Below, one piece after another: positions 1-45,140 of a stretch of DNA of 64,000 bases (its first letter is position 1; each line of letters begins with the position of its first letter). Position numbers and translations under genes: made by a program. The notes under the pieces are model-generated. The model was given only the letters and a program-made list of their open reading frames with translations, searched no databases and was not told where the DNA came from. Source of the DNA: Eledone cirrhosa (Eukaryota); assembly GCA_964016885.1 (NCBI GenBank), contig CAXHJY010000157.1:62001-126000 (forward strand), in the 5' to 3' direction.

Positions 1-2316
1 AAACATTTTGAAAACCTAATCGCTATAGAATAGAATACGTCACGTATTACAATTAGATTCTCGATAAAAGCAAGGGAAGTAATCTACGCGTTTCATTCTT
101 GTTAGAAATCATCAGGACTACATATCCAGTGCTTTTATCGAGAATGACACAGCTAGAGACTTATAGAATACTTAGCTGTGTACAGGAACTGGTTTGAAAG
201 AGCGGTTGCCGGTCCGGCAGAAATTAGAAATTGGAATAAATGCTCTGAAATAGCGATATATATGTGAATATAGACATAGAATATTCGAAAATATTCTGTA
301 TGTTTATAATAAACATTTTGAAGACCTAATCGCTATAGAATAGAATACGTCACGTATTACAATTAGATTCTCGATAAAAGCAAGGGAAGTAATCTACGCG
401 TTTCATTCTTGTTAGAAATCATCAGGACTACATATCCAGTGCTTTTATCGAGAATGACACAGCTAGAGACTTATAGAATACTTAGCTGTGTACAGGAACT
501 GGTTTGAAAGAGCGGTTGCCGGTCCGGCAGAAATTAGAAATTGGAATAAATGCTCTGAAATAGCGATATATATGTGAATATAGACATAGAATATTCGAAA
601 ATATTCTGTATGTTTATAATAAACATTTTGAAGACCTAATCGCTATAGAATAGAATACGTCACGTATTACAATTAGATTCTCGATAAAAGCAAGGGAAGT
701 AATCTACGCGTTTCATTCTTGTTAGAAATCATCAGGACTACATATCCAGTGCTTTTATCGAGAATGACACAGCTAGAGACTTATAGAATACTTAGCTGTG
801 TACAGGAACTGGTTTGAAAGAGCGGTTGCCGGTCCGGCAGAAATTAGAAATTGGAATAAATGCTCTGAAATAGCGATATATATGTGAATATAGACATAGA
901 ATATTCGAAAATATTCTGTATGTTTATAATAAACATTTTGAAGACCTAATCGCTATAGAATAGAATACGTCACGTATTACAATTAGATTCTCGATAAAAG
1001 CAAGGGAAGTAATCTACGCGTTTCATTCTTGTTAGAAATCATCAGGACTACATATCCAGTGCTTTTATCGAGAATGACACAGCTAGAGACTTATAGAATA
1101 CTTAGCTGTGTACAGGAACTGGTTTGAAAGAGCGGTTGCCGGTCCGGCAGAAATTAGAAATTGGAATAAATGCTCTGAAATAGCGATATATATGTGAATA
1201 TAGACATAGAATATTCGAAAATATTCTGTATGTTTATAATAAACATTTTGAAGACCTAATCGCTATAGAATAGAATACGTCACGTATTACAATTAGATTC
1301 TCGATAAAAGCAAGGGAAGTAATCTACGCGTTTCATTCTTGTTAGAAATCATCAGGACTACATATCCAGTGCTTTTATCGAGAATGACACAGCTAGAGAC
1401 TTATAGAATACTTAGCTGTGTACAGGAACTGGTTTGAAAGAGCGGTTGCCGGTCCGGCAGAAATTAGAAATTGGAATAAATGCTCTGAAATAGCGATATA
1501 TATGTGAATATAGACATAGAATATTCGAAAATATTCTGTATGTTTATAATAAACATTTTGAAGACCTAATCGCTATAGAATAGAATACGTCACGTATTAC
1601 AATTAGATTCTCGATAAAAGCAAGGGAAGTAATCTACGCGTTTCATTCTTGTTAGAAATCATCAGGACTACATATCCAGTGCTTTTATCGAGAATGACAC
1701 AGCTAGAGACTTATAGAATACTTAGCTGTGTACAGGAACTGGTTTGAAAGAGCGGTTGCCGGTCCGGCAGAAATTAGAAATTGGAATAAATGCTCTGAAA
1801 TAGCGATATATATGTGAATATAGACATAGAATATTCGAAAATATTCTGTATGTTTATAATAAACATTTTGAAGACCTAATCGCTATAGAATAGAATACGT
1901 CACGTATTACAATTAGATTCTCGATAAAAGCAAGGGAAGTAATCTACGCGTTTCATTCTTGTTAGAAATCATCAGGACTACATATCCAGTGCTTTTATCT
2001 AGAATGACACAGCTAGAGACTTATAGAATACTTAGCTGTGTACAGGAACTGGTTTGAAAGAGCGGTTGCCGGTCCGGCAGAAATTAGAAATTGGAATAAA
2101 TGCTCTGAAATAGCGATATATATGTGAATATAGACATAGAATATTCGAAAATATTCTGTATGTTTATAATAAACATTTTGAAGACCTAATCGCTATAGAA
2201 TAGAATACGTCACGTATTACAATTAGATTCTCGATAAAAGCAAGGGAAGTAATCTACGCGTTTCATTCTTGTTAGAAATCATCAGGACTACATATCCAGT
2301 GCTTTTATCGAGAATG
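1..2316 (-). repeat. 310-bp tandem array (about 7.5 units, open at window start), one hammerhead per unit; retrozyme-like
   Basis: Units start at 1, 311, 621, 931, 1241, 1551, 1861, 2171; only single-base differences seen (e.g. pos 13, pos 2000); no ORF; HHR on minus strand at 79-121 +310n. Confidence 0.95.
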
Positions 2317-8675: not shown

Positions 8676-9227
8676 TTATACTTAAATACACATATATATA
8701 TACTATTTATTTATATATATATATGTGTGTGTGTGCATGCGTATGTGTGTACATGTATGTGTGTGTTTAGGTATATATGCATAATTCCTATATATATATT
8801 TTATAGAGATGAACTGTATTCCAAATTAAATATAAAGATGAGTACTCCTGCGTGACGTCTTGCGTTTATTGTTGAATAAATCATACATTAGCAACCGGAA
8901 ACTACAGCAAGATCTTATTGCAAAACGCAGGTGTTTTAATTTATAAAACAGCCATATCGTCGCTTTTATCATCAATTATAATACTAAAAGAATCAGAAGT
9001 CGTTTTAGCGTAAAGAAGCCAAAGTTAAGCAGACCAATCGCCCGCCAGACAGATTTTGTAATATTATTAATAGTATTATCACGTTTTATTGTTTGTTTGT
9101 TTTTCGTTTCCTTCAGTTTTGATTATATTTCTTGCCAAGTGTCTTCCCGACATCTAGGGCGGAGAAATTATTTTAACTTTGCCTTTCATCCTTACGGGGT
9201 TCTGAGCATTGGCTCCTTACTAGTCTA

Positions 9228-9490
9228 TCCATCCCATGACAAGACCAGTGTGTCTCCTCTTGCAATTCCTCATTACCATCTTATCAATAAGTAACTGGAC
9301 CTTTGTACCACGGGACTTCTTTCGGCATCCTTTCTGTTCGTCCGGTAACAAGTTGTTTGTGTGGAGGTGATGGTAAATTTCCTCAGACATAATACTTGTC
9401 AACAGTTTCCACATTACGGACAGACATGTGATAGGTCTATAGTTGGTAACATCATTACCCTTGATTCGGTCTTTCATTACCAGAACTGTG

Positions 9491-9492
<2 letters not shown>
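9228..9492 (-). pseudogene. Second RT fragment of the adjacent RLE LINE
   Basis: [40 protein letters not shown]; near-identical to 11160-11385; abuts (AAT)n tract 9492-9575. Confidence 0.85.
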
Positions 9493-9564
<72 letters not shown>

Positions 9565-9689
9565 GTTGTTGTTGTTATTCTTTGAGTCTCAGTCATTGAT
9601 GTTATTTAACTGGAAAGTTTGTTGAAATGAATGGTATGATTTAATAGGGCGGTGAATTGGCAGTATCGGCACCTGCAGCCTCAGATATT

Positions 9690-12170
9690 CAGGACGTATC
9701 GGAGGGTTATTGCTGTTCCCAGCAAGCATGCCTTTTGAATTGTTCCAAAAGCGGGGCTGGACTAATTTTCTTTAACCATCCTTGGAAACTCTTTGAGATA
9801 GTACCTAGTGTGCCTATGACAATCGGGACGACCTTCATTTCATGGCAGTTCCAAATCCTTTTTACCTCCCACTTTAAGTCCTGGTAATTGGTTAATTTTC
9901 TCCCTCTCCTTTTCTTGCACTCTCGTGTCAAATGGGCGGCTACATCTACAATCAGGCACGATGTATTTTCCTTGTCCAAAACCACCAGGTCAGACCTATT
10001 GTGTTCTAATTTCTTGTCCGTCTGTATCCTAAAATCCCATAGCACCTTCACCTGATCGCAGCTATTAGCATTCCTTCTGTAGCCTGTTTAAGGTCTCCTC
10101 TTTTTAACCAGTTCCATGTATGTGGATCTCTAAATTCAGTTTTCTTAAAGAGGATACTAAGAAGGTATTTTTCATGAAGGTTGCTCTTTCTCCTTGTTGT
10201 TATTTCCTCCTTGGACATCCCCTGGTCTATTGTCCTCTCCTTCAGTACTACTTTGAGCATTGGCTCCCTAATGTCAGCTACGTATTTGTGCAGGTTGTTT
10301 TTCTCCATCTGAACACAGTCCTCTATGCTGATAAGACCTCGTCTACCTTCAGATATCTTTAAGTAGAGTCTATCAACATCATTCCTCTTGTGGAATATGT
10401 TGTAGATAGTCAATAGCTTCCTAGTTTTCCTATCCATTTCTTTTTGTTCAGGAACATTCCATTTCAGAATTCCCGCACTGTACCTAATAATAGACACCGC
10501 TCGGGGATTCACTACACTTATGACATTCCTACTATTTAGCTGTGATTTTAATACGCTCCTTACTCTCCTAATGTACTCAGATCTTATCAATTCCTTCATT
10601 TTCTTTTGTTCTTGATGTCATCTGCTTCCAGAACACCTAAATATGTGTATCCTTCTTCAGTGTCAATTTCCTTTATCATTTCACCTGTTGGTACCTGGAT
10701 TCCGAGGCTTCTGCTCAATTTACCCCTCTTCATCACTAGGACTCCACACTTATTAATACCAAATTCCATAAATATATCATTGCTGAAAATACGGACAGTG
10801 TCAACAAGTACATCAAACTCCTTCTCACTCTTCCCAAAGAGTTTAAGATCGTCCATGAAGAGGAGGTGGTTAATGGTAAGCTCTCCTTTTCCCAACTTGT
10901 ATCCTGCTCTCACTTTTCGCAATATAATGGTCAAGTGTATCAGGGCAAGGACAAAGAGCAGAAGGGACAAACTATCTCCCTGGAAGATGCCTCTCTTGAT
11001 CTTCACGCCTCCCAAGGATTCTCCACCCGATGTTAACTCTGTTTCCCAGGACCTCATACTTTTGCTCAACAACTGTCTGATGTTATCTGCCACCTTGAAG
11101 ATCTCTAGACTTTTGGTTATCCAAGAATTAGATACCATGTCGAATACCTTTTTGTAATCTATCCATCCCATGGCAAGACCAGTGTGTCACCTCTCGCAAT
11201 TCCTCATTACCATCTTATCAATAAGTAACTGGTCTTTTTGTACCACGGGACTTCTTTCGGCATCCTTTCTGTTCGTCCCGTACCAAGTTGTTTATGTGGA
11301 GGTGATGGTAGATTTCCTCAGACACAAAGCTTGTTAACAGTTTCCACATTGCGGCCAGACATGTGATAGGTCTATAGTTGGTAACTATGTCAAACAAGCG
11401 GTTCTGTCTATACTGACTGACTCTGCTCCCATACCGCCTAATCTTTGCATTTTTTGCTACACTGCGTTGCTTCAGTTCCTCTATGATAATATTTAGCTTT
11501 TCCCCCTACTTTTGTACTTTATTTCCAATCTATTTTTAGTGCCTATGTTTTGTAATGTCCCATTCAGTAGGGACTAAAGCTTTCTCATTTCCTTGATTTG
11601 ATCATTCAGTCGTTTGTTGTTTCCTCTCGTTTTTATGCCAAGTAATTTCCTCATCGCATTTGCTATTGCTTTGAGGATATTGTTGCATTGGTGGAGGTTC
11701 CTCGGCTCAAGGTATGGGATGACTTTGTTTACCTTAGCTGTTGTTTCTTTTAACTTTTTCCTGTCTACAAATCTTAGGTTCATTTCATATACCACTAAGT
11801 TCAGGATATCAACTAAATCTTGTCCTAACCCGTCAGCATTCATTTCCTCAATGGCCGTATCTTTGTTCCAGATGTTATTTATTTCAGCATTCAGATCATT
11901 ATCTGCTTCGGATGCTTCCTCAGGGCTCTCAACTTCTTCACCTTCATTTCCCACTGGCTCGTTTGCCTCATATACTCCGCTCTCCATTTCCAACTTAATC
12001 TCTCGGCCCAGATTCTCCAGTTCCAACTCGCTTATCCATCCATTAGTTCTTATTACCCGAGCCTGTCCGGCCAATGTTTGTTCATCTAATTTAAATAGAC
12101 CAATCTCGTTCCAGACGTTATGCATCCGTTTCCTATAGCCTTCACCACCACTACCGTTTCCTATATCCAT
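9690..12170 (-). mobile_element. Degenerate R4/Dong-like non-LTR retrotransposon (RT + restriction-like endonuclease)
   Basis: ORF pieces: WIDYKKVFDMV, IKRGIFQGDSLS, HLLFMDDLKLF (RT); VLWDFRIQTDKKLEHNRSDLVVLDK..VDVA (RLE); frameshifts and deletions, CCHC region missing near 10050. Confidence 0.9.
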
Positions 12171-12599
12171 CCTTTCTGAAACAGTACAGAGAAGTACGGA
12201 ATATCTCGGCCTTGGAATGGTGTCTACAATTTGTGCTTATAAAAGAAATTTCTCGTAGATTACCAGGGGGTTTAACTTAATTGGGTGCCTGAGAGTAAAA
12301 TGTTCAACCCACGAAAGCCGAGACGATAGGGTTAAGTAAAAAGGCATTCGACAAACCGAACATGTATGTGTTATGCTTAGGTACAATGAAAGCAATAGTT
12401 ACAGAGCAGTAAGTATGTGGGACTGCAGTGGTGGAGAGTATGAAGGAATTTAGTTGGATACTTTTAAGGTTACAAAAATCTACCCACTCTGATATAGACC
12501 GAACTGTTATATCGGATGCCGAACACTCGGATTTACTATTGGGGTCACCATCAACAATTTCAAGGGATGTACGTTTAAGTAGAGATATAGTCTATAAAG

Positions 12600-20591: not shown

Positions 20592-21656
20592 TAAGTAGAC
20601 TAAAATCCAAAGAGGGCTCGATAAGGATAAATATAAATCAAATATAAAAGAACCATAGAGAAAATATTTATTAAAATACCAGATTAAAGTTTAAACAAAT
20701 AATCGCTGCTTTCATCCTTAACGGGATCTTCTGAAACTAAAAAAATCAATCTGTGAATGCAGAAGTAAATATTTCGTAGGAACACGTGCAACCCTGTAAC
20801 TAGTACTAACTGTAATTGTAGGAATCGGGTTCACTGCCCCCAATCCGGGAAATGCCTCTCTAGTAACATTGTCTACAAATGTAAGGTTGAAACACCCACG
20901 TCCCGTAGGGCCTACATAGGGTTAACCGCCAATAGATTCAAGCAGCGTCTTTACATGCATACCCATTCTTTTCTTAACCCTTTAAGAAGGAATATGTCGT
21001 CACTTTCAGCTTATATCTGGAGTCTAAAAGACAACCACACACAATATAAGTTACACTGGGAGATCCTAGCTAGGGCTAGATCGTATAACGTAAATAAAAG
21101 ACCACGTGACCTCTGCGCCGCTGATCCCTGGAAATACTCTACGCCAAAGACCACATCTTAAACAAAAATCTGAGGCAATTGCGGCTTGTAAACATAGATT
21201 GCACAAAACTTTCCTGTATTACAACCCCACATTATACCCTAACGGATAGTACGATCTATACGCGGATATTTTACGTCTCGATGCGGTAGCTAAGTATATG
21301 TTATGTTTATACCATTACTTATTTGTATAGGTAAATATATATTACCTGTATGTTTTGTGAAGGTACGTATACTTTCTCGTACCTATATTTGCTTGTATAT
21401 GTTATAGGCGTATATATTATATTATATTATATATACCGGTACATGTGCATATGGTTGTGTGTATACTTGAGTTTGCGTCTGTGTGAGTATGCGGTTTCGT
21501 ACGTATGTAGGGTGTATGTATATGTGTACTTTGTGTTTTGGTTGACGTACGTCTGCGAACATATGTGTATTTACATGTAGGTATGTGTGTGCGCACGTTA
21601 TATACGTATTTATGTGTGTATATTTATATATGTTTATATAATTATATGTATACACG

Positions 21657-28052: not shown

Positions 28053-29633
28053 TTAAACCTTATTTAATGTTGGTCTATATTTTTGAATAAACATATGTTC
28101 CTTATGTATTCGCATTTGTTCTGTTGTATTGTTAGCGCAAAGGTAAAATGGGAAGACTTGGAATTTGGGTGTCTTATTACTTGCACAAATGTCTAGATAT
28201 GCACTTAGTGGTATCTGTCTCGTGGTTGGATCTCGTAATTGTTGGCGATGAACTGTCATTCTGTTTCTGAGTGTGAGTTTAGTTTGTCCTATATAATCTT
28301 CATTGCATCCTTTACATTTAATGGCATAAATTAGATTTTTTGATGAGCAAGTGAAGTGATTTTTTACAGTAAAATTTTGTCCTGATTTAAATGTATACGT
28401 GTTGCCTTCAATGAGGTGAGTGCAGGTTCCACAATTAGAGCGACCACATTTTTTGATACTTGGTTGTGGGTTTGTGGTAGGTAATTTGGCATTGGTGAGT
28501 AATGTTTTCAGTGATTTTGGTTGTCTTTTGCTTTTGATTATTTTGTGTGTTTCAAGGGCTTTTTTCATTCTTGGGTTTTGTTTTAGTAGTGGGATGTTAT
28601 TGTGAATAGTGTTGTAAGCTTCCGCATTTCTTGGGTTGTGTGTTGAGATATATGATAGAATATTGGACGTACCTTGAATTTGTTTCTGTTTCCGTAATTC
28701 ATCAATGCCTATTGCTTTAGCCCTTTCTATTCCATTATTTATTAGTAATAGTGGGTACTCTCTCTCAAGTAGAATTTCCTTTAATTCTTGAAGTCTTTTA
28801 TTTCGCGTTTCATAATTGGAGACAATTGTGCAAATTCTTCTTGCTAGGTTAAAAGGAATGTTCGTCTTCGTGTGCTTTGGATGGTTGGAGGTGAATATCA
28901 GGTATTGTTTGGAATCTGTTGGTTTGTAGTGTATGTCAGTTTCGATATTTGTGTCTTTTTTTGTGATTAAGATGTCCAGAAATTGGAGTTGATCTTGGCT
29001 GTATTCCATTGTGAATTGGATGTGGTTATTGATGCCGTTTATTAAGTTTTTGAAATCCTTCAGTTGGTCGAGTGTGTGGGACCAAAGAATGAGGCAATCA
29101 TCCAAGTAGCGTTTCCAATTCTCTGATAAATATTTGTGGAAGTTCAATCCGTATTTTGATTTGGACTGTTCATATATCTGGACTTCTAAGTATGCCATGA
29201 CTAAGTTGGCATAAGTTGGAGCGGCTTTTGTGCCCATCGGAGTCCCCGATATTTGCTTGTAAGTACTGCCATCGAAATCAAAAAAGTTGTTCTGTAGGAT
29301 GAATTTTAATCCCTCGGTGATGAAGCTTTTTTCTATTCTGTCAGGTATCTCATTGGGATATTTCTCTAGCCAGAATCCTATTGCTTCTAGTCCGTATTGG
29401 TGTGGGATCGTTGTGTAGAGATTCACTACATCGAAAGACACAATAATAGTGTCGTTGTTGACATGTTTGGGAAGGTGGTTTAAGAGGTCCAGATCGTCTG
29501 TTACAAGGCTTGGTATGTGTTTCAGTATTGGTTTCAGTAGTATGTCTATAAAGTTGCTCAATCTGTGTGTTTCACATTGTGGGCCCGCTACAATTGGTCT
29601 TAATTTAAGGTCTGTGGGGTATTGTGTGTTCAC
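28053..29633 (-). CDS. PLE reverse transcriptase + GIY-YIG endonuclease (N-terminally truncated; frame continues to about 29690)
   Basis: LRPIVAGP, SFDVVNLYTTIP, QISGTPMGTKAAPTYANLVM, RYLDD, FLDI, YKPTD, CGRSNCGTC, LIYAIKCKGCNEDYIGQT; no stop in 526 aa. Confidence 0.93.
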   Translation of the reverse strand: MNTQYPTDLKLRPIVAGPQCETHRLSNFIDILLKPILKHIPSLVTDDLDLLNHLPKHVNNDTIIVSFDVVNLYTTIPHQYGLEAIGFWLEKYPNEIPDRIEKSFITEGLKFILQNNFFDFDGSTYKQISGTPMGTKAAPTYANLVMAYLEVQIYEQSKSKYGLNFHKYLSENWKRYLDDCLILWSHTLDQLKDFKNLINGINNHIQFTMEYSQDQLQFLDILITKKDTNIETDIHYKPTDSKQYLIFTSNHPKHTKTNIPFNLARRICTIVSNYETRNKRLQELKEILLEREYPLLLINNGIERAKAIGIDELRKQKQIQGTSNILSYISTHNPRNAEAYNTIHNNIPLLKQNPRMKKALETHKIIKSKRQPKSLKTLLTNAKLPTTNPQPSIKKCGRSNCGTCTHLIEGNTYTFKSGQNFTVKNHFTCSSKNLIYAIKCKGCNEDYIGQTKLTLRNRMTVHRQQLRDPTTRQIPLSAYLDICASNKTPKFQVFPFYLCANNTTEQMRIHKEHMFIQKYRPTLNKV

Positions 29634-29692
29634 GCAGGCTGAGGTGGATTGTTTACAGGCATCGTTGATTATTTTACATTTGTGGATCTCAC

Positions 29693-35350: not shown

Positions 35351-35352
<2 letters not shown>
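35267..35352. repeat. Perfect hairpin (about 39-bp arms, 7-nt loop) next to (TA)n
   Basis: ACGATATTAAC..AAACCATA aaataaa TATGGTTT..GTTAATATCGT. Confidence 0.9.
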
Positions 35353-35385
<33 letters not shown>

Positions 35386-35889
35386 CTTAATTCAAAATAT
35401 TAACAAATATAGACATTCGTGTCATCAAGTGTATTTTATTATACATATTTCAAAGGTACTGAGCTGTCTTCAACAGTATGTCCTCATCAGATAAAATAAG
35501 ATGATGCATGACATACCCTGACTAAATAGATGGTTAAAATTCAGTCATGGCAGTGAATAAGATATGACAAAACTCAATATTTATATACCTTAAGATTGAG
35601 ACATGAGAAAATTACATATACTACAGAGGGTGCGTGTGAGAAAGCTTATAAAGATACATAATAATAAACAACTACTAATATAATATAAACCTACATAACT
35701 GTTAGAGATTCAAATAATTTAAATTATTGAAGAAAGAAGAAGTGAAGACAGAGAGAAAAACAGAAGAGGAAAAAAGAGAATGACTAGAAGTATAGAATTA
35801 TCTTATGCACGAAAGCAAAAGAAAATTGATTAAGGATAGAGAAAGGAGGAACAAATAAATGTTTATAGTATAAGTATAGGGTTAGGGTT

Positions 35890-37445
35890 TGATTGCTACA
35901 GATGCTGGAGGAGCAAACCATATAACTGATTTAGTTCTATTTTTCCCCGATTTATTCACGGTATTGGTATTTATATTTATATTTAAATAATTTTTAAAAT
36001 CTAGTTTATTTGTGTTAGTCTTATTTTATCTGGATTATAATTTAAATTAGTATTATCTATATATTCAATATTATTTTTATAACCTGCCTTATGTAGCGCG
36101 TCATTATAGTATCCTGCTTTTTCCTCAAATATGGAATTGTTAGCGGATATTCTAGTTATGCGTTTCTGTACACTATGGACTATTGCATTTTTCACGGATT
36201 TAGGGTGATTAGAGTAATAGCTAACGTAATTTAAGTTTTCATTGGACTTATGGAAAAGGTAATAAACTATTTTTGTACTACTTTCAACTTCTAATTTAAG
36301 GTCGTAAATTTTAAAGAATTCAATTATAGTTTTCTTAACCCTATTTAGTTCTGTATTGCTATGCTTGACAAATCTAAATAAAATATCGTCCCTATAAAAA
36401 ACTACCGGTAATCTCCGGCAGTTTTCTATTTACCATATTTAGGATAAAAATACAAAGAAGATCGGTAACCTGCACAGAGTCCGATGATCCCATGGTAATG
36501 TCAAAGTTTCTATTCCGATCTGAACGGGTCCAATACTCATTGTTAAAATTAATTAGAGTTCTTCTAGCAGTTAATATGATATTGATTTCATCTGCATTTA
36601 GATCTGTATGTTTGTAAGCATAAGACAAAGCCTTATTTAATAGGTTAGGTGTAATACAAGAATAATAACTTGCTATGTCCATTTGAATGAATTTGTGATT
36701 TTTCTTATATTCTATATTTTTAAACCAGTCAATTACTTCATTAGTGTCCTTCCATAAGCTCAATTTTGACTTCAATTTCAGAGTTAGTAAAATTCTGTCA
36801 ATAATATTCTTACTGATTACTCCAATATCCCATTTAGATGGAGCTATTAGTCTAACGGGCAGGTCTTACTCAAAGTTTCTCTTGTGATCCTTAAAATTTA
36901 TCCTCGGCTGTCTAGGTATAAAAGGCTCTGTTCTTCCTTCAATTCCAAGTTTGGCTATTAATTTAAACGCGTCATTATTGATGTCTATAAGATCTTCGGC
37001 CGGGGCTTTTCTGTAATTTTTTCGCAGTTCTTTTAAAATTAAATCATTATATTCAGTTTTATCCATCCCATATAAGGTGTTGGTTTTGTCTGACTTAACC
37101 AATATTTTATTAACTTTTTTAAAATCCAAGATTTGTTCCTTCAGAGTTCTAAGGTATGGTGACCTTTCGATGGGGTTTTCTTGAATTTAATCTTCTTTAG
37201 TATATTAAGCATTTCGGTTTCAAAATCCTCCAGGAGTGTGTTGTATGGAGGATTTTTTCTAGATTTAAAGATGGTTTCGAAATAATTGTTGTTGCTTTTC
37301 CTTTTTGCTTCTTTGTTTTCGAAATGAAATGCACGCCATCTCACTCTTCTTATAAAATATTTGTGTTGCTCAATGAGCTTCCTCGTGTATTCCTCATTCG
37401 ATGGTATAGGTACATCCTTGAGAGATGTTGGGAACGTGAAGAATT
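35890..37445 (-). pseudogene. Degenerate PLE ORF (N-terminus and RT; GIY-YIG deleted)
   Basis: SLKDVPIPS..RVRWRAFHF, KSDKT, FKDHK, WKDTNEVIDWF, FIQMDIASYY, FDITMGSSDS, VIWFAPP; stops and deletions. Confidence 0.85.
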
Positions 37446-37488
37446 CAATTAATTATTAAATTTGTAATCTATTGTAGAGAAAGCGCTC

Positions 37489-39423
37489 AACCTGCTGGGA
37501 GCTAGGTATGTTTAAAGGTTAAACAAGGTTCAATGAATAAATCAATGAATAAAGTTTTACAATAGATTAGAAGCAATCCACAGAAATGGTTTTCCGGAGT
37601 TATTAATATTAGTTCAAAATATTAAGAAATATAGACATTCGTGTGATCAAGTATATTTTATTGTATAACCCTAACGATAACTCTAACCCTAACACTAACA
37701 CTAACCCTAAACTGCTGAGAGCTAGATATATTTAAAGGTTAAACAAAGTTCAATGAATAAATCAATGAATAAAGTTTTACAATAGATTAGAAGCAATCCA
37801 CAGTTATGGTTTTCCGGAGTTATAAATATTAGTTCAAAATATTAACAAATATAGACATTCGTGTGATCAAGTATATTTTATTATATAACACTAACACCAA
37901 CACTAACCCTAACCCTAAGCCTAACCCTAACCCTACACTAACCCTAACCCTAACCCTAATCCTAACCCGAAACCTAAAACCAACCCTAGCCCTAACTCTA
38001 ACCCTAACCCTAACCCTAACCCTAATCCTAACCTGCTAGGAGCTAGATATATTTAAAGGTTATACAAGGTTCAATGAATAAATCAATGAATAAAGTTTTA
38101 CAATAGATTAGAAGCAATCCACAGATATGGTTTTGCGGAGTTATTAATATTAGTTCAAAATATTAACAAATATAGACATTCGTGTGATCAAGTATATTTT
38201 ATTATATAAAACTAACACAAACCCTAACCCGAACCCTAACACTAACACCAACACTAACCCTAACCCTAACCCTAAACCTAACCCTAACCATAAACCTAAC
38301 CCTAACCCTAACCCTAACCCTATCCCTAACCCTAACTCTAAGCCTAAGCCTAAACCTAACCATAACCATAACCATAACCCTAACCCTAACCCAAACCCTA
38401 ACCTGCTGGAAGCTAGATATATTTAAAGGTTAAACAAGGTTCAATGAATAAATCAATGAATACAGTTTTACGATAGATTAGAAGCAATCCACAGATATGG
38501 TTTTCAGGAGTTATTAATATTAGTTCCAAATATTAACAAATATAGACATTCGTGTGATCAATTATATTTTATTATATAACCCTAACCCTAACCCTGACCC
38601 TAACCCTAACCCTAACTCTAACCCTAAACCTAACCCTAACCTAACCTAACCCGCTGGGCGCTAGATATATTTAAAGGTTATACAAGGTTCAATGAATAAA
38701 TCAATGAATAAAGTTTTACAATAGATTAGAAGCAATCCACAGTTATGGTTTTCCGGTGTTATTAATATTAGTTCCAAATATTAACAAATATAGACATTCG
38801 TGTTATCAAGTATATTTTATTATATAACCCTAACCCTAACCCTAACCCTATCCCTAACCCTAACCTGCTGGGAGCTAGATATATTTAAAGGTTAAACAAG
38901 GTTCAATGAATAAATCAATGAATAAAGTTTTACAATAGATTAGAAGCAATCCACGGTGAATGGTTTTCCTGAGTTATTAATATTAGTTCAAAATATTAAC
39001 AAATATAGACATTCGTGTTATCAAGTATATTTTATTATATAACCCTAACCCTAAACCTAACCATAACCATAACCCTAACCCTAACCCTAACCCTAACCTG
39101 CTGGGAGCTAGATATATTTAAAGTTTATACAAGGTTCAATGAATAAATCAATGAATAAAGTTTTACAATAGATTAGAAGCAATCCACAGTAAATGGTTTC
39201 CGGAGTTATTAATATTAGTTCAAAATATTAATAAATATAGACATTCGTGTTATCAAGTATATTTTATTATATAACCCTAACCCTAACCCAACCCAACCGC
39301 AAACCTAACCCTAACCCCAAACCTAACCCTAAACTTAACCCAAACCCTAAACCCTAACCCTAAACCTTAACCCCAACCCAACCCTAACCCTAACCCTAAC
39401 CTTAACGCTAACCCTAACCCTAA
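37489..39423 (-). repeat. Array of seven about 176-bp PLE 5'-leader units, each followed (on +) by a variable (CCCTAA)n telomeric-type tract
   Basis: Units start about 37491, 37711, 38032, 38402, 38651, 38864, 39097; tracts about 45, 146, 195, 75, 39, 56, 150 bp. Confidence 0.95.
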
Positions 39424-39554
39424 TAATCTGTATTTATTTAAGATATGATTAATGTTGGATTAAGGGTTCTACATAAACATATAAACTGTTAACATGATCT
39501 TTTGATGATTATGTATATCATTTGATTGTTTAAATACATTTAATTTTTCGGGGT

Positions 39555-40585
39555 TTATTGTATTTTTAAATTATATAGCTTATATGTTTGACTATTATAT
39601 GGAATCGTAAACCATTCATTTATTTATTTTGAATATGTTGTTTTAAGATTCAAGATGTTTGATTTATATATTTATGGTATATGTGTCGTACACGATCCTA
39701 GTCGACTAATTTTTCCACTTAACTTGATGTAAAACTTTATTTATAACACTATTAACAGTAATTGTATTTATTATATGTATATAATTGACTAATATCGTCT
39801 TAAACTTTAAACAGTATACTCTGTATGTATTTAGACAAATGTGTATATCTAGTTTAATAATATCCGTTTTAAGTACATTTATATGGCCTTTGGATACTTA
39901 GGGCATTCTAGTTTTATAATTGTTAATTATTTTCTAAATTATATAATGATTATTTTTTAATAATCTTTTTATATAATTAAATTTGGATTACCTTTGGGTT
40001 GATGAAAATCTTAAGTCTTTTCTTTTTCATGTTTGCAAACACATTAGATATGATATTATACTATAATAGAAATCCTTTAAAATTGTCTTGTATTTTTTTA
40101 ATTATATAGCTTATATATTTGACACGTATAGGATCGCAAACCATTCATTTATTTATTTTGAATCTGTGTTTTATGATTCATGAAGTTTGATTTGTATATT
40201 TATAGTATATATGTATTACATGATCCTAGTTGAATAATTTTTTTTTAATATAATACTTGACGTAAAACTTTATTTTTAACACTATTAACAGTAATTATAT
40301 ATATTATATATAACTGACTAATATCGTCTTAAACTTTAAACAATGTACTCTTTGTATAAACTTAGACAAATGAGTATATCTAGTTTAATAATATCCTTTT
40401 TAAGTACACTTATATGGCCTTTGGATACTTAAGGGCATTCTAATTTTAATTTTAAATTTATAATTGTAATTATTTTCTAAATTATATAATGATTATTTTT
40501 TAATATAAAACTTCTTTAATATAAAAAAATGTTTTTGTTATAATTTAATTTGGATTACCTTCGGGATGAAGAAAATCTTAAGTAT
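39555..40585. repeat. Diverged tandem duplication (about 520-bp period) of AT-rich sequence inside the PLE
   Basis: 39560-40015 resembles 40090-40585 (AAACCATTCATTTATTTATTTTGAAT, TATGGCCTTTGGATACTTA, TTTGGATTACCTT). Confidence 0.85.
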
Positions 40586-41584
40586 ACTATAATATAAATA
40601 CTTATACATTTTATAGTCAGAAATCTTATGTCTTTAGATTAATTCACTATTTCTAACTAACATAAAGATTCGAAATTTAACGGTCATCCGGATGCGCTGG
40701 GATATATATATAATTGATTAATTGGCTATTTCTTATTAACTTAAGGATTCGAAAATAAACCGTCATATAACTACACCCAGATATATATTTGATATTTGAT
40801 TAATTGATTATTTCTAGATAATTTAACGATTCGAAATTAATCATTCACAAAGCTATGCCCGAATATATATTTATATATATATATATTTGCATCATCTAAT
40901 TATGCACTATTTATGAACGACAATACAAATCTCCCTCCCTATGTGTTATACTATAAAAATTTATTTTTTCCTCCTTTCTCTATCCTTAATCAATTTTCTT
41001 TTGCTTTCGTGCATAAGCTAATTCTATACTTCTAGTCATTCTCTTTTTTCCTCTTCTGTTTCTCTCTCTGTCTTTCACTTCTTCTGTCTTCAATAATTTA
41101 AATTATTTAAATCTCTAACAGTTATGTAGGTTTACATTATATTAGTAGTTGTTTATTATTATGTATCTTTATAAGCTTTCTCACACGCACCCTCTGTATT
41201 ATATGTAATTTTCTCATGTCTCAAACTTAAGGTACATAAATATTGAGTGTTGTCCTATCTTATTCACTGCCATGACTTAATGTTAACCATCTACTTAGTC
41301 AAGGTATGTCATGCATCATCTTTTTTATCTGATGAAGACGTACTGTTGAAGATAGCTCTGAAATATGTATAATAAAATATACTTGATCACACGAATGTCT
41401 ATATTTGTTAATATTTTGAATTAATATTAATAACTCCGGAAAACCATAACTTTGGAGTGCTTCTAATCTCTTGTAAAACTTTATTCATTGATTTATTCAT
41501 TGAACCTTGTTTAACCTTTAAATATATATATATATATTTATCTAAATAAAGGATTATGAGTTCATGCAATTGACTTATGTTTCG

Positions 41585-41625
<41 letters not shown>

Positions 41626-41938
41626 AATGTAAGCTATCGCCGTATTTTGACTAAAGAAATTATTTAGCCTGATAGTGGGGTTAAGAACCCTCGTAGAAAT
41701 GGAAAAAGATGAGTATTGACGTACAAGGGAGTCGACCCCACATCTTTGGTTATCCGGACCACTGTGCTACCATTTACACCAACACATCACCTGTCTTTTT
41801 CCATTCCTAAATAATTTCTTTAATTTCTTTAGTCAAAATACGGCGAAAGCTTACATTTCTAATAATTTCAAACCCACTCGCTGTTTCGAAAATATTCTTA
41901 CTTGATATATATATATGTATATATAAAAGAGCGAGAGA

Positions 41939-43646: not shown

Positions 43647-44315
43647 AAAAAATAAAAAAGGAAATTTCGCTCTACATGGCTGAATACAATAAATGCAATC
43701 TGAGTTTTTCGAATATTAATAATAACATTCGATTCAGTACAGCTCACTGTTCACCTGCCAAACTGTCAGGGCTATAAAATTGACATACTACTGACATGGC
43801 TATAAAATTGAGGCTTGTTTGCATAATTGCAAACGAATCGAATGTTATTATTAATGTTCGAACATCTCAGATTACATTTATTGTATTCAGCCATGTACAG
43901 CGAAATTTTCTTTTTTATTAGAATTTGGCAAAGCCGCCCATTTATCGCTTGTATACAAGAAACTGACTGGCCAGTCTGCTGATATGCAAATCTGGCTGAT
44001 CAGTCGATCTGCTAATATACAAATCTAACTGATCAGCGAGTCTGCTAATATGCAAATCAGGCCGATCAGTCACTGTGTATTTTTGAAAATAGCATATATT
44101 TTCACTAGCTCTGGCAGTTTGACAGGTGAACAGTGAGATGAGCTATACTGATGAAGGGTGATACCCAGAAACATTGGTGTCTGCAGTTCTTTTCGAATGC
44201 CAACATAAGACCAAGAATGAAGTGTTCATTCTACTGACATGGCTATAAAATTGAGGTTTGTTTGCATAATTGCAAACGAATCGAATGTTATTATTAATGT
44301 TCGAAAAACTCAGAT

Positions 44316-44320
<5 letters not shown>
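43647..44320 (+). mobile_element. Rearranged pLTR-like element with direct and inverted segments and HHR at 44140-44189
   Basis: GAGCTATA-CTGATGA-AGGGT GAT ACCCA-GAAA-CA ttgg TG-TC/TGCAGTTC; 43788-43876 repeated at 44231-44319; 43647-43735 inverts 43835-43918. Confidence 0.75.
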
Positions 44321-44382
<62 letters not shown>

Positions 44383-44383
<1 letters not shown>

Positions 44384-44830
44384 CCCCCGCAACCTCCGCG
44401 ACCTCCTGGTTCGCAGGTCCTTCTCGCCCTCTCCCACGACTCCACCCGGCTCTCATCCTTGTTCCCGTTCCCGCTGCAACACTTGTCCCATCATTTCCAC
44501 CCTCACCACTATTACAGACCCTAACGGGTCTTTCCGTATCCGCCACCCTTTCACCTGCACATCCACCCAAGTTGTCTATGCCCTCCGGTGTTTCCTTTGC
44601 GGGTCTTTATACATCGGGAAAATGGGACGCCGTATGGCGGGCCGTTTTCCTGAGCATTTGAGGGACATACGACTCGGTTTGGATACTCCTGTCACCCGTC
44701 ATTTCTGTTCTCCTGGTCATTCTTCCTTACATGTTTCAGTCCTGGGTGTCCTTTTACATCATGGATCACAGGCTTCGCGCACCAGGACTGAACAATGTCT
44801 GATTCACCGCCTTGGGTCATACGCTTGGAC
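44383..44830 (+). pseudogene. PLE GIY-YIG endonuclease C-terminal fragment
   Basis: PGSHPCSRSRCNTC..FTCTSTQVVYALRCFLCGSLYIGKMGRRMAGRFPEH..PVTRHF; 5' end abuts (TA)n. Confidence 0.85.
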
Positions 44831-45140
44831 TCAACTCGCCTCCCCAATTTCTCTAATACCCCGTCCATTATCATATGCGCTTGTACATTCACCCCTAGAT
44901 TCCTATCGCTCTCTCTCTTGATCATTAACATCTTCTCTTACAACTAATACACACCAACTATATATGTTCACTCCACTTTTCCCTTCACTGCTCTGTATAC
45001 ACACATACACACCCTAATATTAAGATACTTTTGCTCATAGCTTCGTACATACATGCACACACACACACTATTTTACTCACATATACACAAACATTTCTTC
45101 TTAGCCCTTGTACGGACGTATAATAACACACACACACACT

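What the first reader, a model, noticed from the sequence alone, without database searches (positions are those of the whole stretch)
37489..39423. PLE leader/telomere-repeat array whose junction sits at the ribozyme cut site
Seen: seven about 176-bp copies of the PLE 5' leader alternate with degenerate (TTAGGG)n tracts of 39-195 bp, a constant-repeat/variable-spacer layout directly upstream of the RT ORF. The element's own HHR reads GAAATATGTATA/ATAAAATATACTTGATCAC (cut after 41371). Most units start GGGTTA-TATA-ATAAAATATACTTGAT on the minus strand, so telomeric sequence replaces the ribozyme within 4 nt of the cut. At the other end the native CAGCAGGTTGAG becomes CAGCAGGTTAGGG (GGTT microhomology to the telomere repeat). 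Established: PLE RTs are the closest relatives of telomerase, and endonuclease-less PLEs (Athena, Coprina) attach to telomeres. Inference: iterative template jumping between HHR-cleaved RNA and telomeric templates, telomerase-like addition at GGTT, or one such junction amplified later.
Basis: partly seen in the sequence, partly recalled or inferred. Interest (0 to 1): 0.9.

Follow-up and report, generated by a model that had tools for sequence, protein, structure and literature searches.

The report
Telomere patch in Penelope insertion, amplified
A run of telomere repeats sits at the joint where two back-to-back copies of a Penelope-type jumping gene meet, likely added by telomerase to a loose DNA end and then likely copied locally together with 177 bases of the gene's leader into seven units, and the same kind of telomere patch occurs at such joints in other Penelope families of this genome.

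Summary
The array is real: seven 177-178-nt leader copies (94% alike) alternate with TTAGGG tracts of 39-195 nt. It fills the joint of one head-to-head, (TA)n-anchored insertion of an endonuclease-coding, Hydra-type Penelope-like element, not an Athena/Coprina telomeric one. Iterative RNA-template jumping is unlikely. Both array junctions are unique in the 3.0-Gb assembly. The units form one clade, share two near-private variants and show signs of DNA exchange, and similar spacer/TTAGGG arrays exist with non-PLE spacers. The predicted ribozyme cut is well placed (stem I 8/8; family breakpoints about 3-4-fold enriched there, small numbers); the tract joins 4 nt from it. The more interesting result is that 3-4 of 58 independent short TTAGGG tracts sampled elsewhere also sit at inversion joints of other PLE-type families (control 6 of 700 points), two starting from 6-7-nt in-register seeds. 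A further single repeat lies at this insertion's internal deletion. Best reading: telomerase patches free cDNA or break ends in PLE joints, and this one was then amplified. Nine literature searches found no report of this for EN+ PLEs. An earlier scan note (e1-9597562, unchecked) describes a tract in front of a retrotransposon elsewhere in this genome.

The parts
37489..39423 (-). Array of 7 x (TTAGGG tract + PLE leader) filling the head-to-head joint
39272..39423 (-). Tract 1 (152 nt); its G-rich strand continues the cDNA strand of the right-hand copy from a 3-4-nt in-register seed (TTA, or TTAG by the closest relative L017)
39095..39271 (-). Leader unit 1
39040..39096 (-). Tract 2 (57 nt); shares a 23-nt variant motif with tract 5
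38862..39039 (-). Leader unit 2
38825..38863 (-). Tract 3 (39 nt)
38648..38824 (-). Leader unit 3
38577..38649 (-). Tract 4 (73 nt)
38400..38576 (-). Leader unit 4
38207..38401 (-). Tract 5 (195 nt); shares motifs with tracts 2 and 6
38030..38206 (-). Leader unit 5
37886..38031 (-). Tract 6 (146 nt)
37709..37885 (-). Leader unit 6
37666..37710 (-). Tract 7 (45 nt)
37489..37665 (-). Leader unit 7, continuous with the element; starts 4 nt before the position equivalent to the predicted HHR cut (37662/37661)
35888..37452 (-). Broken RT ORF of the left-hand copy (frameshifts and stops), Hydra-type motifs in intact relatives
35876..35892 (-). Internal deletion joint (about 2.4 kb lost, including the endonuclease); reads CCCTAACCCTA, i.e. 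one extra TTAGGG on the cDNA strand between a native TAGGG seed and a TT/AA overlap; not native in relatives
35432..35498 (-). Hammerhead motif of the left-hand copy's 3' pLTR, predicted cut after 35440
35352..35439 (-). Short (about 55-60 nt) 3' tail of the left-hand copy ending in (TA)n
39424..41527 (+). Right-hand copy: 5'-truncated, non-coding 3' UTR + pLTR, inverted relative to the left copy, 159-nt tail ending in (TA)n
41321..41379 (+). Hammerhead motif of the right-hand copy (shortened stem II), predicted cut after 41371

Best explanation
This is one head-to-head insertion of an endonuclease-coding Penelope-like element whose central joint holds telomere repeats, likely added by host telomerase to a free 3' end, and whose tract-plus-leader segment was then likely multiplied to seven by DNA-level slippage and unequal exchange. 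Inferred steps: (1) two cDNAs were primed on opposite strands of a (TA)n target. (2) The right-hand cDNA stopped at ...ATTAG (39424) and was extended with TTAGGG repeats. (3) The left-hand cDNA ran to about the 5' end of HHR-cut RNA (or 4 nt beyond on uncut RNA) and was joined to the tract. (4) One GGTT-guided duplication made the leader-to-tract joint, and out-of-register exchange in the tracts produced the array and the variable tract lengths, at about the time of insertion. Shown: the anatomy, the uniqueness of both joints, and the common ancestry of the units. Not shown: which enzyme made the repeats, and whether during integration or in later repair of a break at the joint.
For: Anatomy: left copy (-) and right copy (+) end outward in (TA)n with about 60-nt and 159-nt tails, the usual pairing in other loci of the family. 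Single origin: exact 5' joint 3 of 3 genome matches in the array, loose 5' joint 5 of 5, 3' joint 6 of 6. Units are monophyletic among 57 other leaders (FastTree support 0.946). All 7 carry C at 37612 (5 of 161 other leader pieces) and T at 37576 (1 of 91); the right arm's leader copy has neither, and the left arm's tail lacks the first (it does not reach the second). Subset-shared variants u1/2/3, u1/3/5 and u3/4 are mutually incompatible, so DNA exchange occurred. Variant motifs shared by tracts 2/5 and 5/6 occur 0 times in 48,331 bases of other TTAGGG arrays. All six internal joints use the same GGTT although the left copy has 8 GGTT sites. Constant-spacer/variable-TTAGGG arrays with non-PLE spacers exist: 2043-bp spacers 99% alike (L190), 115-bp (L185), L203. 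Telomerase signature: in-register seeds of 3-4 nt here, 5 nt at the 35885 deletion, 6 nt at L097, 7 nt at L246; PMC2246262 (passages) gives chance of 4 or more in register as at most 0.39% and reads such seeds as telomerase action. Recurrence: tracts at inversion joints of other PLE-type families in 3 of 58 independent short tracts by a fixed rule (L067, L097, L246), 4 with L278 found by flank comparison, versus 6 of 700 random points (Fisher p 0.026 and 0.005). A near-pure terminal CCCTAA array on C7 (99.8%) fits TTAGGG as the telomere repeat.
Against: Microhomology at the tract start is also expected from end joining or template switching, so seeds do not prove telomerase; L278 has only a 1-nt seed. 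The TERT search found nothing and its control rang nowhere, so telomerase was not shown. Patches are rare in this family: 0 of 131 5' ends in 67 loci carry a telomere hexamer and 0 matches were found for a G-rich tract within 30 nt of the cut-site hot spot. Units are as diverged (4.6% outside one hypervariable patch) as the two arms (22 of 471, 4.7%), and mostly star-like, so amplification during integration is not excluded. The overall tract-sharing statistic was not significant (p 0.57 pooled, 0.059 within; only the longest shared run was, p 0.013-0.018). The 35885 hexamer could be a 6-nt local duplication. L246 and L278 came from patterns that require a tract ending in TTA, so that phase is ascertained. 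No independent reads span any joint.
Confidence: 0.55

Rival explanations
1. The tract was captured, not synthesised by telomerase: the PLE RT switched once from the 5' end of HHR-cut RNA onto a G-rich telomeric template (TERRA or an overhang), or repair copied one of the many interstitial tracts; then the same DNA-level amplification followed.
For: The joint lies 4 nt from the predicted cut, which is a modest breakpoint hot spot. Interstitial TTAGGG is abundant (76,191 matches to five repeats) and carries the same variant types. Seeds also fit end joining.
Against: The short patches at L246 (9 added nt after a native GTTAGGG) and at 35885 (one repeat after TAGGG) look like end extension, and in L097, L246 and L278 neither arm starts at the HHR cut by eye.
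Confidence: 0.25
2. One reading: the PLE RT built the array by jumping repeatedly between cut leader RNA and telomeric templates, or by cycles of telomerase extension and re-annealing during integration, each tract being a separate event.
For: Tract lengths vary 39-195 nt; the unit tree is mostly star-like and as old as the insertion; tract 1 has its own variant types.
Against: Identical register at all 7 and all 6 joints, same TATA filler, one of 8 GGTT sites used six times, shared tract motifs, uniqueness in the genome, same layout with non-PLE spacers.
Confidence: 0.1
3. An ordinary interstitial telomeric insertion at a later double-strand break that fell on the joint because inverted-repeat centres are fragile, with no link to retrotransposition.
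For: 54 of 58 independent short tracts are not at PLE-type inversion joints; L067 is a symmetric hairpin.
Against: Asymmetric joints (L097 173-nt, L246 301-nt, this locus about 1.9-kb spacer) are not hairpin tips, yet the tract is at the strand switch; amplification age equals insertion age.
Confidence: 0.1

Closest known systems
Hydra-clade EN+ Penelope-like elements (Craig et al. 2021, PMC8557442; passages and section 11 read)
   Same: DKT, CxCX5C linker, no CCHH, C-terminal GIY-YIG, HHR in pLTR, (TA)n targets, inverted 5'-truncated copy beside the main copy
   Different: RWR instead of RWK; longer (about 4.5 kb) than the usual under 3 kb; telomere repeats at the joint are not mentioned in the passages read
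Athena/Coprina/Terminon EN- PLEs (PMC3846280 and PMC6431247, passages; the 2007 primary paper was not held)
   Same: Telomeric repeats added to a truncated 5' end, i.e. on the cDNA strand; HHR near telomeric repeats; element pieces alternating with short tracts
   Different: Those lack EN, sit at chromosome ends and carry reverse-complement repeats next to the 3' HHR. Here the family is EN+, interstitial, has no native tandem CCCTAA, and the leader units carry the G-rich strand in sense
Short interstitial telomeric sequences inserted by telomerase at breaks (PMC2246262, passages) and their amplification by unequal exchange or slippage (PMC6410037, passages)
   Same: In-register seeds at the G-strand start; length variation and amplification
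   Different: The break here is the strand-switch joint of a retroelement insertion, and a piece of the element was amplified with the tract
Poseidon PLE in vitro (Frangieh et al. 2024, PMC11167929; parts 1-2 of 4 read)
   Same: Both target strands are cut and extended; two RT start sites explain short and long tails
   Different: HHR cleavage was dispensable in vitro and no RNA reads ended at the cut; here genomic breakpoints are modestly enriched at the predicted cut

Membership tests
Hydra-clade EN+ PLE | C-terminal GIY-YIG without CCHH | tested here: met
   LVYKCTVKANxITYNYIG in L036 and L038 ORFs, one Cys only; Pfam gave no hit; deleted in the window copy
Hydra-clade EN+ PLE | CxCX5C linker | tested here: met
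   CNCRNRPDC in L038; L036 has a substitution there
Hydra-clade EN+ PLE | DKT in place of DKG | tested here: met
   L036, L040
Hydra-clade EN+ PLE | RWK motif | tested here: inconclusive
   RWR at that place in L040
Hydra-clade EN+ PLE | HHR in pLTR and (TA)n insertion | tested here: met
Hydra-clade EN+ PLE | Placement in the Hydra clade of an RT tree | not tested
   no reference set was fetched
Athena/Coprina telomeric EN- PLE | No endonuclease domain | tested here: not met
   family ORFs carry GIY-YIG
Athena/Coprina telomeric EN- PLE | Reverse-complement telomeric repeats beside the 3' HHR | tested here: not met
   no tandem CCCTAA in 6 of 6 long copies, single hexamers only; 0 in 345 kb of 67 family loci
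Athena/Coprina telomeric EN- PLE | Location at chromosome ends | tested here: not met
   copies are spread through chromosomes; the array is at least 49 kb from both ends of a 150,628-bp scaffold whose end 10 kb hold no telomeric array; the scaffold's chromosomal place is unknown
Telomerase-inserted short ITS | In-register seed at the G-strand start | tested here: met
   3-4 nt at 39424
Telomerase-inserted short ITS | Empty orthologous site | not testable with these tools
   no related genome held; reads uninformative
Telomerase-inserted short ITS | Host telomerase present | tested here: inconclusive
   no PF12009 match, control silent; near-pure terminal array on C7
Minimal PLE hammerhead (PMC4209133, passages) | CUGANGA/GAAA core, stems I-II, palindromic stem III | tested here: met
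   stem I 7-8/8, stem II 8-9/10 (6/10 in the 41329 copy), stem III palindrome 8/8 in 10 copies
Minimal PLE hammerhead (PMC4209133, passages) | Self-cleavage | not testable with these tools
   only indirect breakpoint excess

The most novel reading that the evidence does not exclude
Host telomerase caps paused cDNA ends of endonuclease-coding Penelope elements during integration, across several families, so the telomere-capping step known from telomeric Athena/Coprina elements also acts at internal sites and is a steady source of interstitial telomeric repeats; and hammerhead-cut RNA is a real in-vivo template, leaving a breakpoint hot spot at the cut.
Probability: 0.4. Interest if true: 0.7.

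Novelty: new variant of a known kind. Interest (0 to 1): 0.48.

Why it matters
If telomerase patches PLE joints, it links two sister reverse transcriptases at the same DNA end outside telomeres and names a source for some interstitial telomeric repeats. The breakpoint excess at the predicted hammerhead cut bears on an open point: PMC11167929 found cleavage dispensable in vitro and saw no reads ending at the cut. Both can be tested by a genome-wide count in this assembly. The seven-unit array itself is a one-off local amplification and matters little.

Tried and rejected
CRISPR-like or programmed array: rejected; the layout recurs with unrelated spacers and no acquisition order is seen. Native CCCTAA in the 3' UTR: not found. 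Rfam: no HHR at gathering score. Pfam: no hits for this family's ORFs. First cut-site control used an anchor present in only 1 of 37 sampled copies and gave 12 rows; replaced. My first reading (23 of 75 rows depart at the cut) overstated the hot spot: fetching all 22 loci showed 10 substitutions, 5 small indels, 2 tandem duplications, 1 deletion and 5 true breaks. A loose inverted-repeat rule (4 of 73 tracts, control 15 of 400) showed no enrichment and was replaced by a rule that asks for an arm boundary at the joint. Sequencing runs: best holder had 0.22 of the words; contigs and RAD reads were too short or absent to bridge the 35885 joint or the tract: no verdict. TERT search: no verdict. 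Flanks of four large internal or terminal arrays showed no adjacent PLE joint; one Hydra-type ORF lay about 7.8 kb from an array, taken as chance. Sequence look-up in earlier findings: nothing. No supplements were read; those of PMC8557442 (Hydra alignments, HHR list) could bear on family membership.

Full report
Observation. The minus strand of 37489-39423 holds seven leader units (177-178 nt, mean identity 94.4%) alternating with degenerate TTAGGG tracts of 152, 57, 39, 73, 195, 146 and 45 nt. The window lies on a 150,628-bp unplaced scaffold of a 3.0-Gb animal assembly; an earlier scan note calls the genome octopus-type, which I did not check. A 310-bp array in the same window is 99% uniform, which argues against read error as the source of the variants, but no independent reads span the joints.

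The element. The leader belongs to an abundant family (2,150 and 3,625 first-look candidates; 2,473 exact matches to a 35-mer across the cut). Long copies encode RT plus a C-terminal GIY-YIG with DKT, CxCX5C and no CCHH and end in (TA)n. This fits the Hydra clade of PMC8557442 at motif level; no tree against references was made. It is therefore not an Athena/Coprina element, and 6 of 6 long copies lack tandem CCCTAA.

Anatomy. The 2.1 kb beyond the array (39424-41527, +) is a 5'-truncated, non-coding copy of the same element, inverted to the copy that runs from unit 7 through a broken RT ORF to 35385. The two ends carry tails of about 60 and 159 nt into (TA)n, the pairing seen at many other loci of the family, so this is most likely one insertion. 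The array fills the joint where the strands switch. Tract 1 continues the right copy's cDNA strand from a 3-4-nt in-register seed. The left copy has lost about 2.4 kb, and that deletion joint reads CCCTAACCCTA where relatives do not: one extra repeat on the cDNA strand after a native TAGGG; the 11-mer occurs 0 times in 345 kb of 67 other family loci.

The cut site. Stem I pairs 8/8 with the cut after GUAUA and 4/8 with a cut 2 nt earlier. In one search (all 75 rows) 23 depart at the cut; fetching them showed 5 true breaks, 2 duplications, 1 deletion, 5 small indels and 10 substitutions, against about 25 breaks over the 16 positions inside the leader (hand tally; Poisson p 0.02). In one search (first 100 of 284 rows) 6 true breaks fall at the cut against about 16 over the next 12 positions (hand tally; p 0.003); three events are shared between the two sets. 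So the cut is a modest hot spot. The array joint keeps TATA beyond it, which is either native or (TA) filler as in L167 and L168.

One joint, amplified. Genome-wide patterns for the 5' joint (3 of 3 and 5 of 5 matches) and the 3' joint (6 of 6) hit only this array. The units form one clade among 57 other leaders (support 0.946) and share two variants that are rare elsewhere (5 of 161 and 1 of 91); the right arm's leader copy has neither, and the left arm's tail lacks the one it reaches. Three variants shared by subsets are incompatible with one tree, and two multi-variant motifs are shared between tracts but absent from 48 kb of other arrays (the overall sharing statistic was not significant). 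The same layout exists with spacers that match neither this family nor my PLE protein queries (L190, L185, L203). Units differ by 4.6% and the two arms by 4.7%, so amplification was about as old as the insertion.

Recurrence of the patch. I gave 126 tract loci to a fixed test and kept 62 isolated short tracts (dropped: long arrays, duplicates, edge cases; 25 loci of one 25-bp tandem array were not given). Five lie at an inversion point against 6 of 700 random points. Two of the five belong to one dispersed palindromic family with five members in the set, leaving 58 independent tracts. L097 is a (TA)n-bounded head-to-head insertion of another Hydra-type family (RT ORF in L213) with five repeats at the joint, a native 6-nt seed and a TTA overlap; its joint is unique against 40 native matches. 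L246 is an HHR-bearing family whose native GTTAGGG is extended by 9 nt. L067's arms belong to a family lying beside ORFs like the window's other PLE in 3 of 11 loci. L278, missed by the rule but seen by flank comparison, has HHR-bearing arms, a 1-nt seed and no ORF in 8 family loci. Fisher p is 0.026 for 3 of 58 and 0.005 for 4 of 58. Against this: 0 of 131 5' ends of the window's family carry a telomere hexamer, one search found none at the cut, and a looser test showed no enrichment.

Mechanism. I commit to telomerase extension of a free 3' end in the joint followed by DNA-level amplification (0.55). The amplification step alone I put at about 0.85. Capture from TERRA, an overhang or another tract (0.25), iterative building (0.10) and unrelated later repair (0.10) remain. 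Telomerase itself was not found (no verdict).

Known and new. Repeat addition to truncated 5' ends is described for EN- PLEs at chromosome ends (PMC3846280, PMC6431247; passages), and telomerase-made interstitial tracts with in-register seeds for mammals (PMC2246262; passages). Nine searches gave no paper on telomeric tracts at inversion joints of EN+ PLEs; the library lacks most subscription papers and the 2007 primary paper. The names TERRA-jumping and unequal exchange are used as general knowledge, the latter also in PMC6410037 (passages). Verdict: real, a new variant of known processes; the array is a local by-product, the recurring patch is the lead. Interest 0.48.

Noticed in passing
L097 (G000:C1:315283537-315283880), L246 (C1:62877433), L278 (C1:255119556), L067 (C1:75544473): Short TTAGGG tracts at the strand-switch joint of head-to-head insertions of four other PLE-type families.
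   Followed up: yes
window 1-2316 and inverted arm to about 2600; also L097 1-905: 310-bp tandem array, 99% uniform, with a hammerhead-like CTGATGA...GAAA motif in each unit, two-armed and ending in (TA)n; an earlier scan note treats this family as a retrozyme-like element.
   Followed up: partly
L276, L281, L283, L284, L285, L286, L289 (e.g. C1:113490968): Dispersed palindromic repeat family with TTAGGG and CCCTAA tracts facing each other at its centre; no PLE protein match in L276.
   Followed up: partly
L190 (C4:297.78-297.81 Mb), L185 (C1392), L203 (C28:119.57 Mb), L187/L192 (C9): Arrays of constant non-PLE spacers alternating with variable TTAGGG tracts.
   Followed up: partly
L099-L101, L205-L208 (C2:241.91-241.95 Mb): Internal array over 40 kb with CCCTAA then TTAGGG halves meeting at about 241,926,190.
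   Followed up: partly
L193/L211 (C7:8000-13570): Near-pure CCCTAA array close to the contig start, likely a true telomere.
   Followed up: partly
window 28053-29690 (-): Open 545-aa RT plus GIY-YIG ORF of a different PLE family (Pfam RVT_1 and GIY-YIG).
   Followed up: partly
window 20769-21161 (+), 44298-44921 (+), 33161, 53051, 26556 and others: Further PLE endonuclease fragments and hammerhead-like motifs of other families.
   Followed up: no
window 41717-41788 (-): tRNA-like Rfam match (33.3 bits), possibly a SINE head; not checked.
   Followed up: no
window 39558-39962 and 40088-40505: About 420-nt direct duplication (85%) in the element's 3' UTR, also seen in other copies.
   Followed up: partly
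L060 (C1:3225951): TTAGGG run expanded inside a common dispersed repeat, apparently at a GGTT-like seed.
   Followed up: no
window 9220-12236 (-): Fragments of a non-LTR retrotransposon RT.
   Followed up: no
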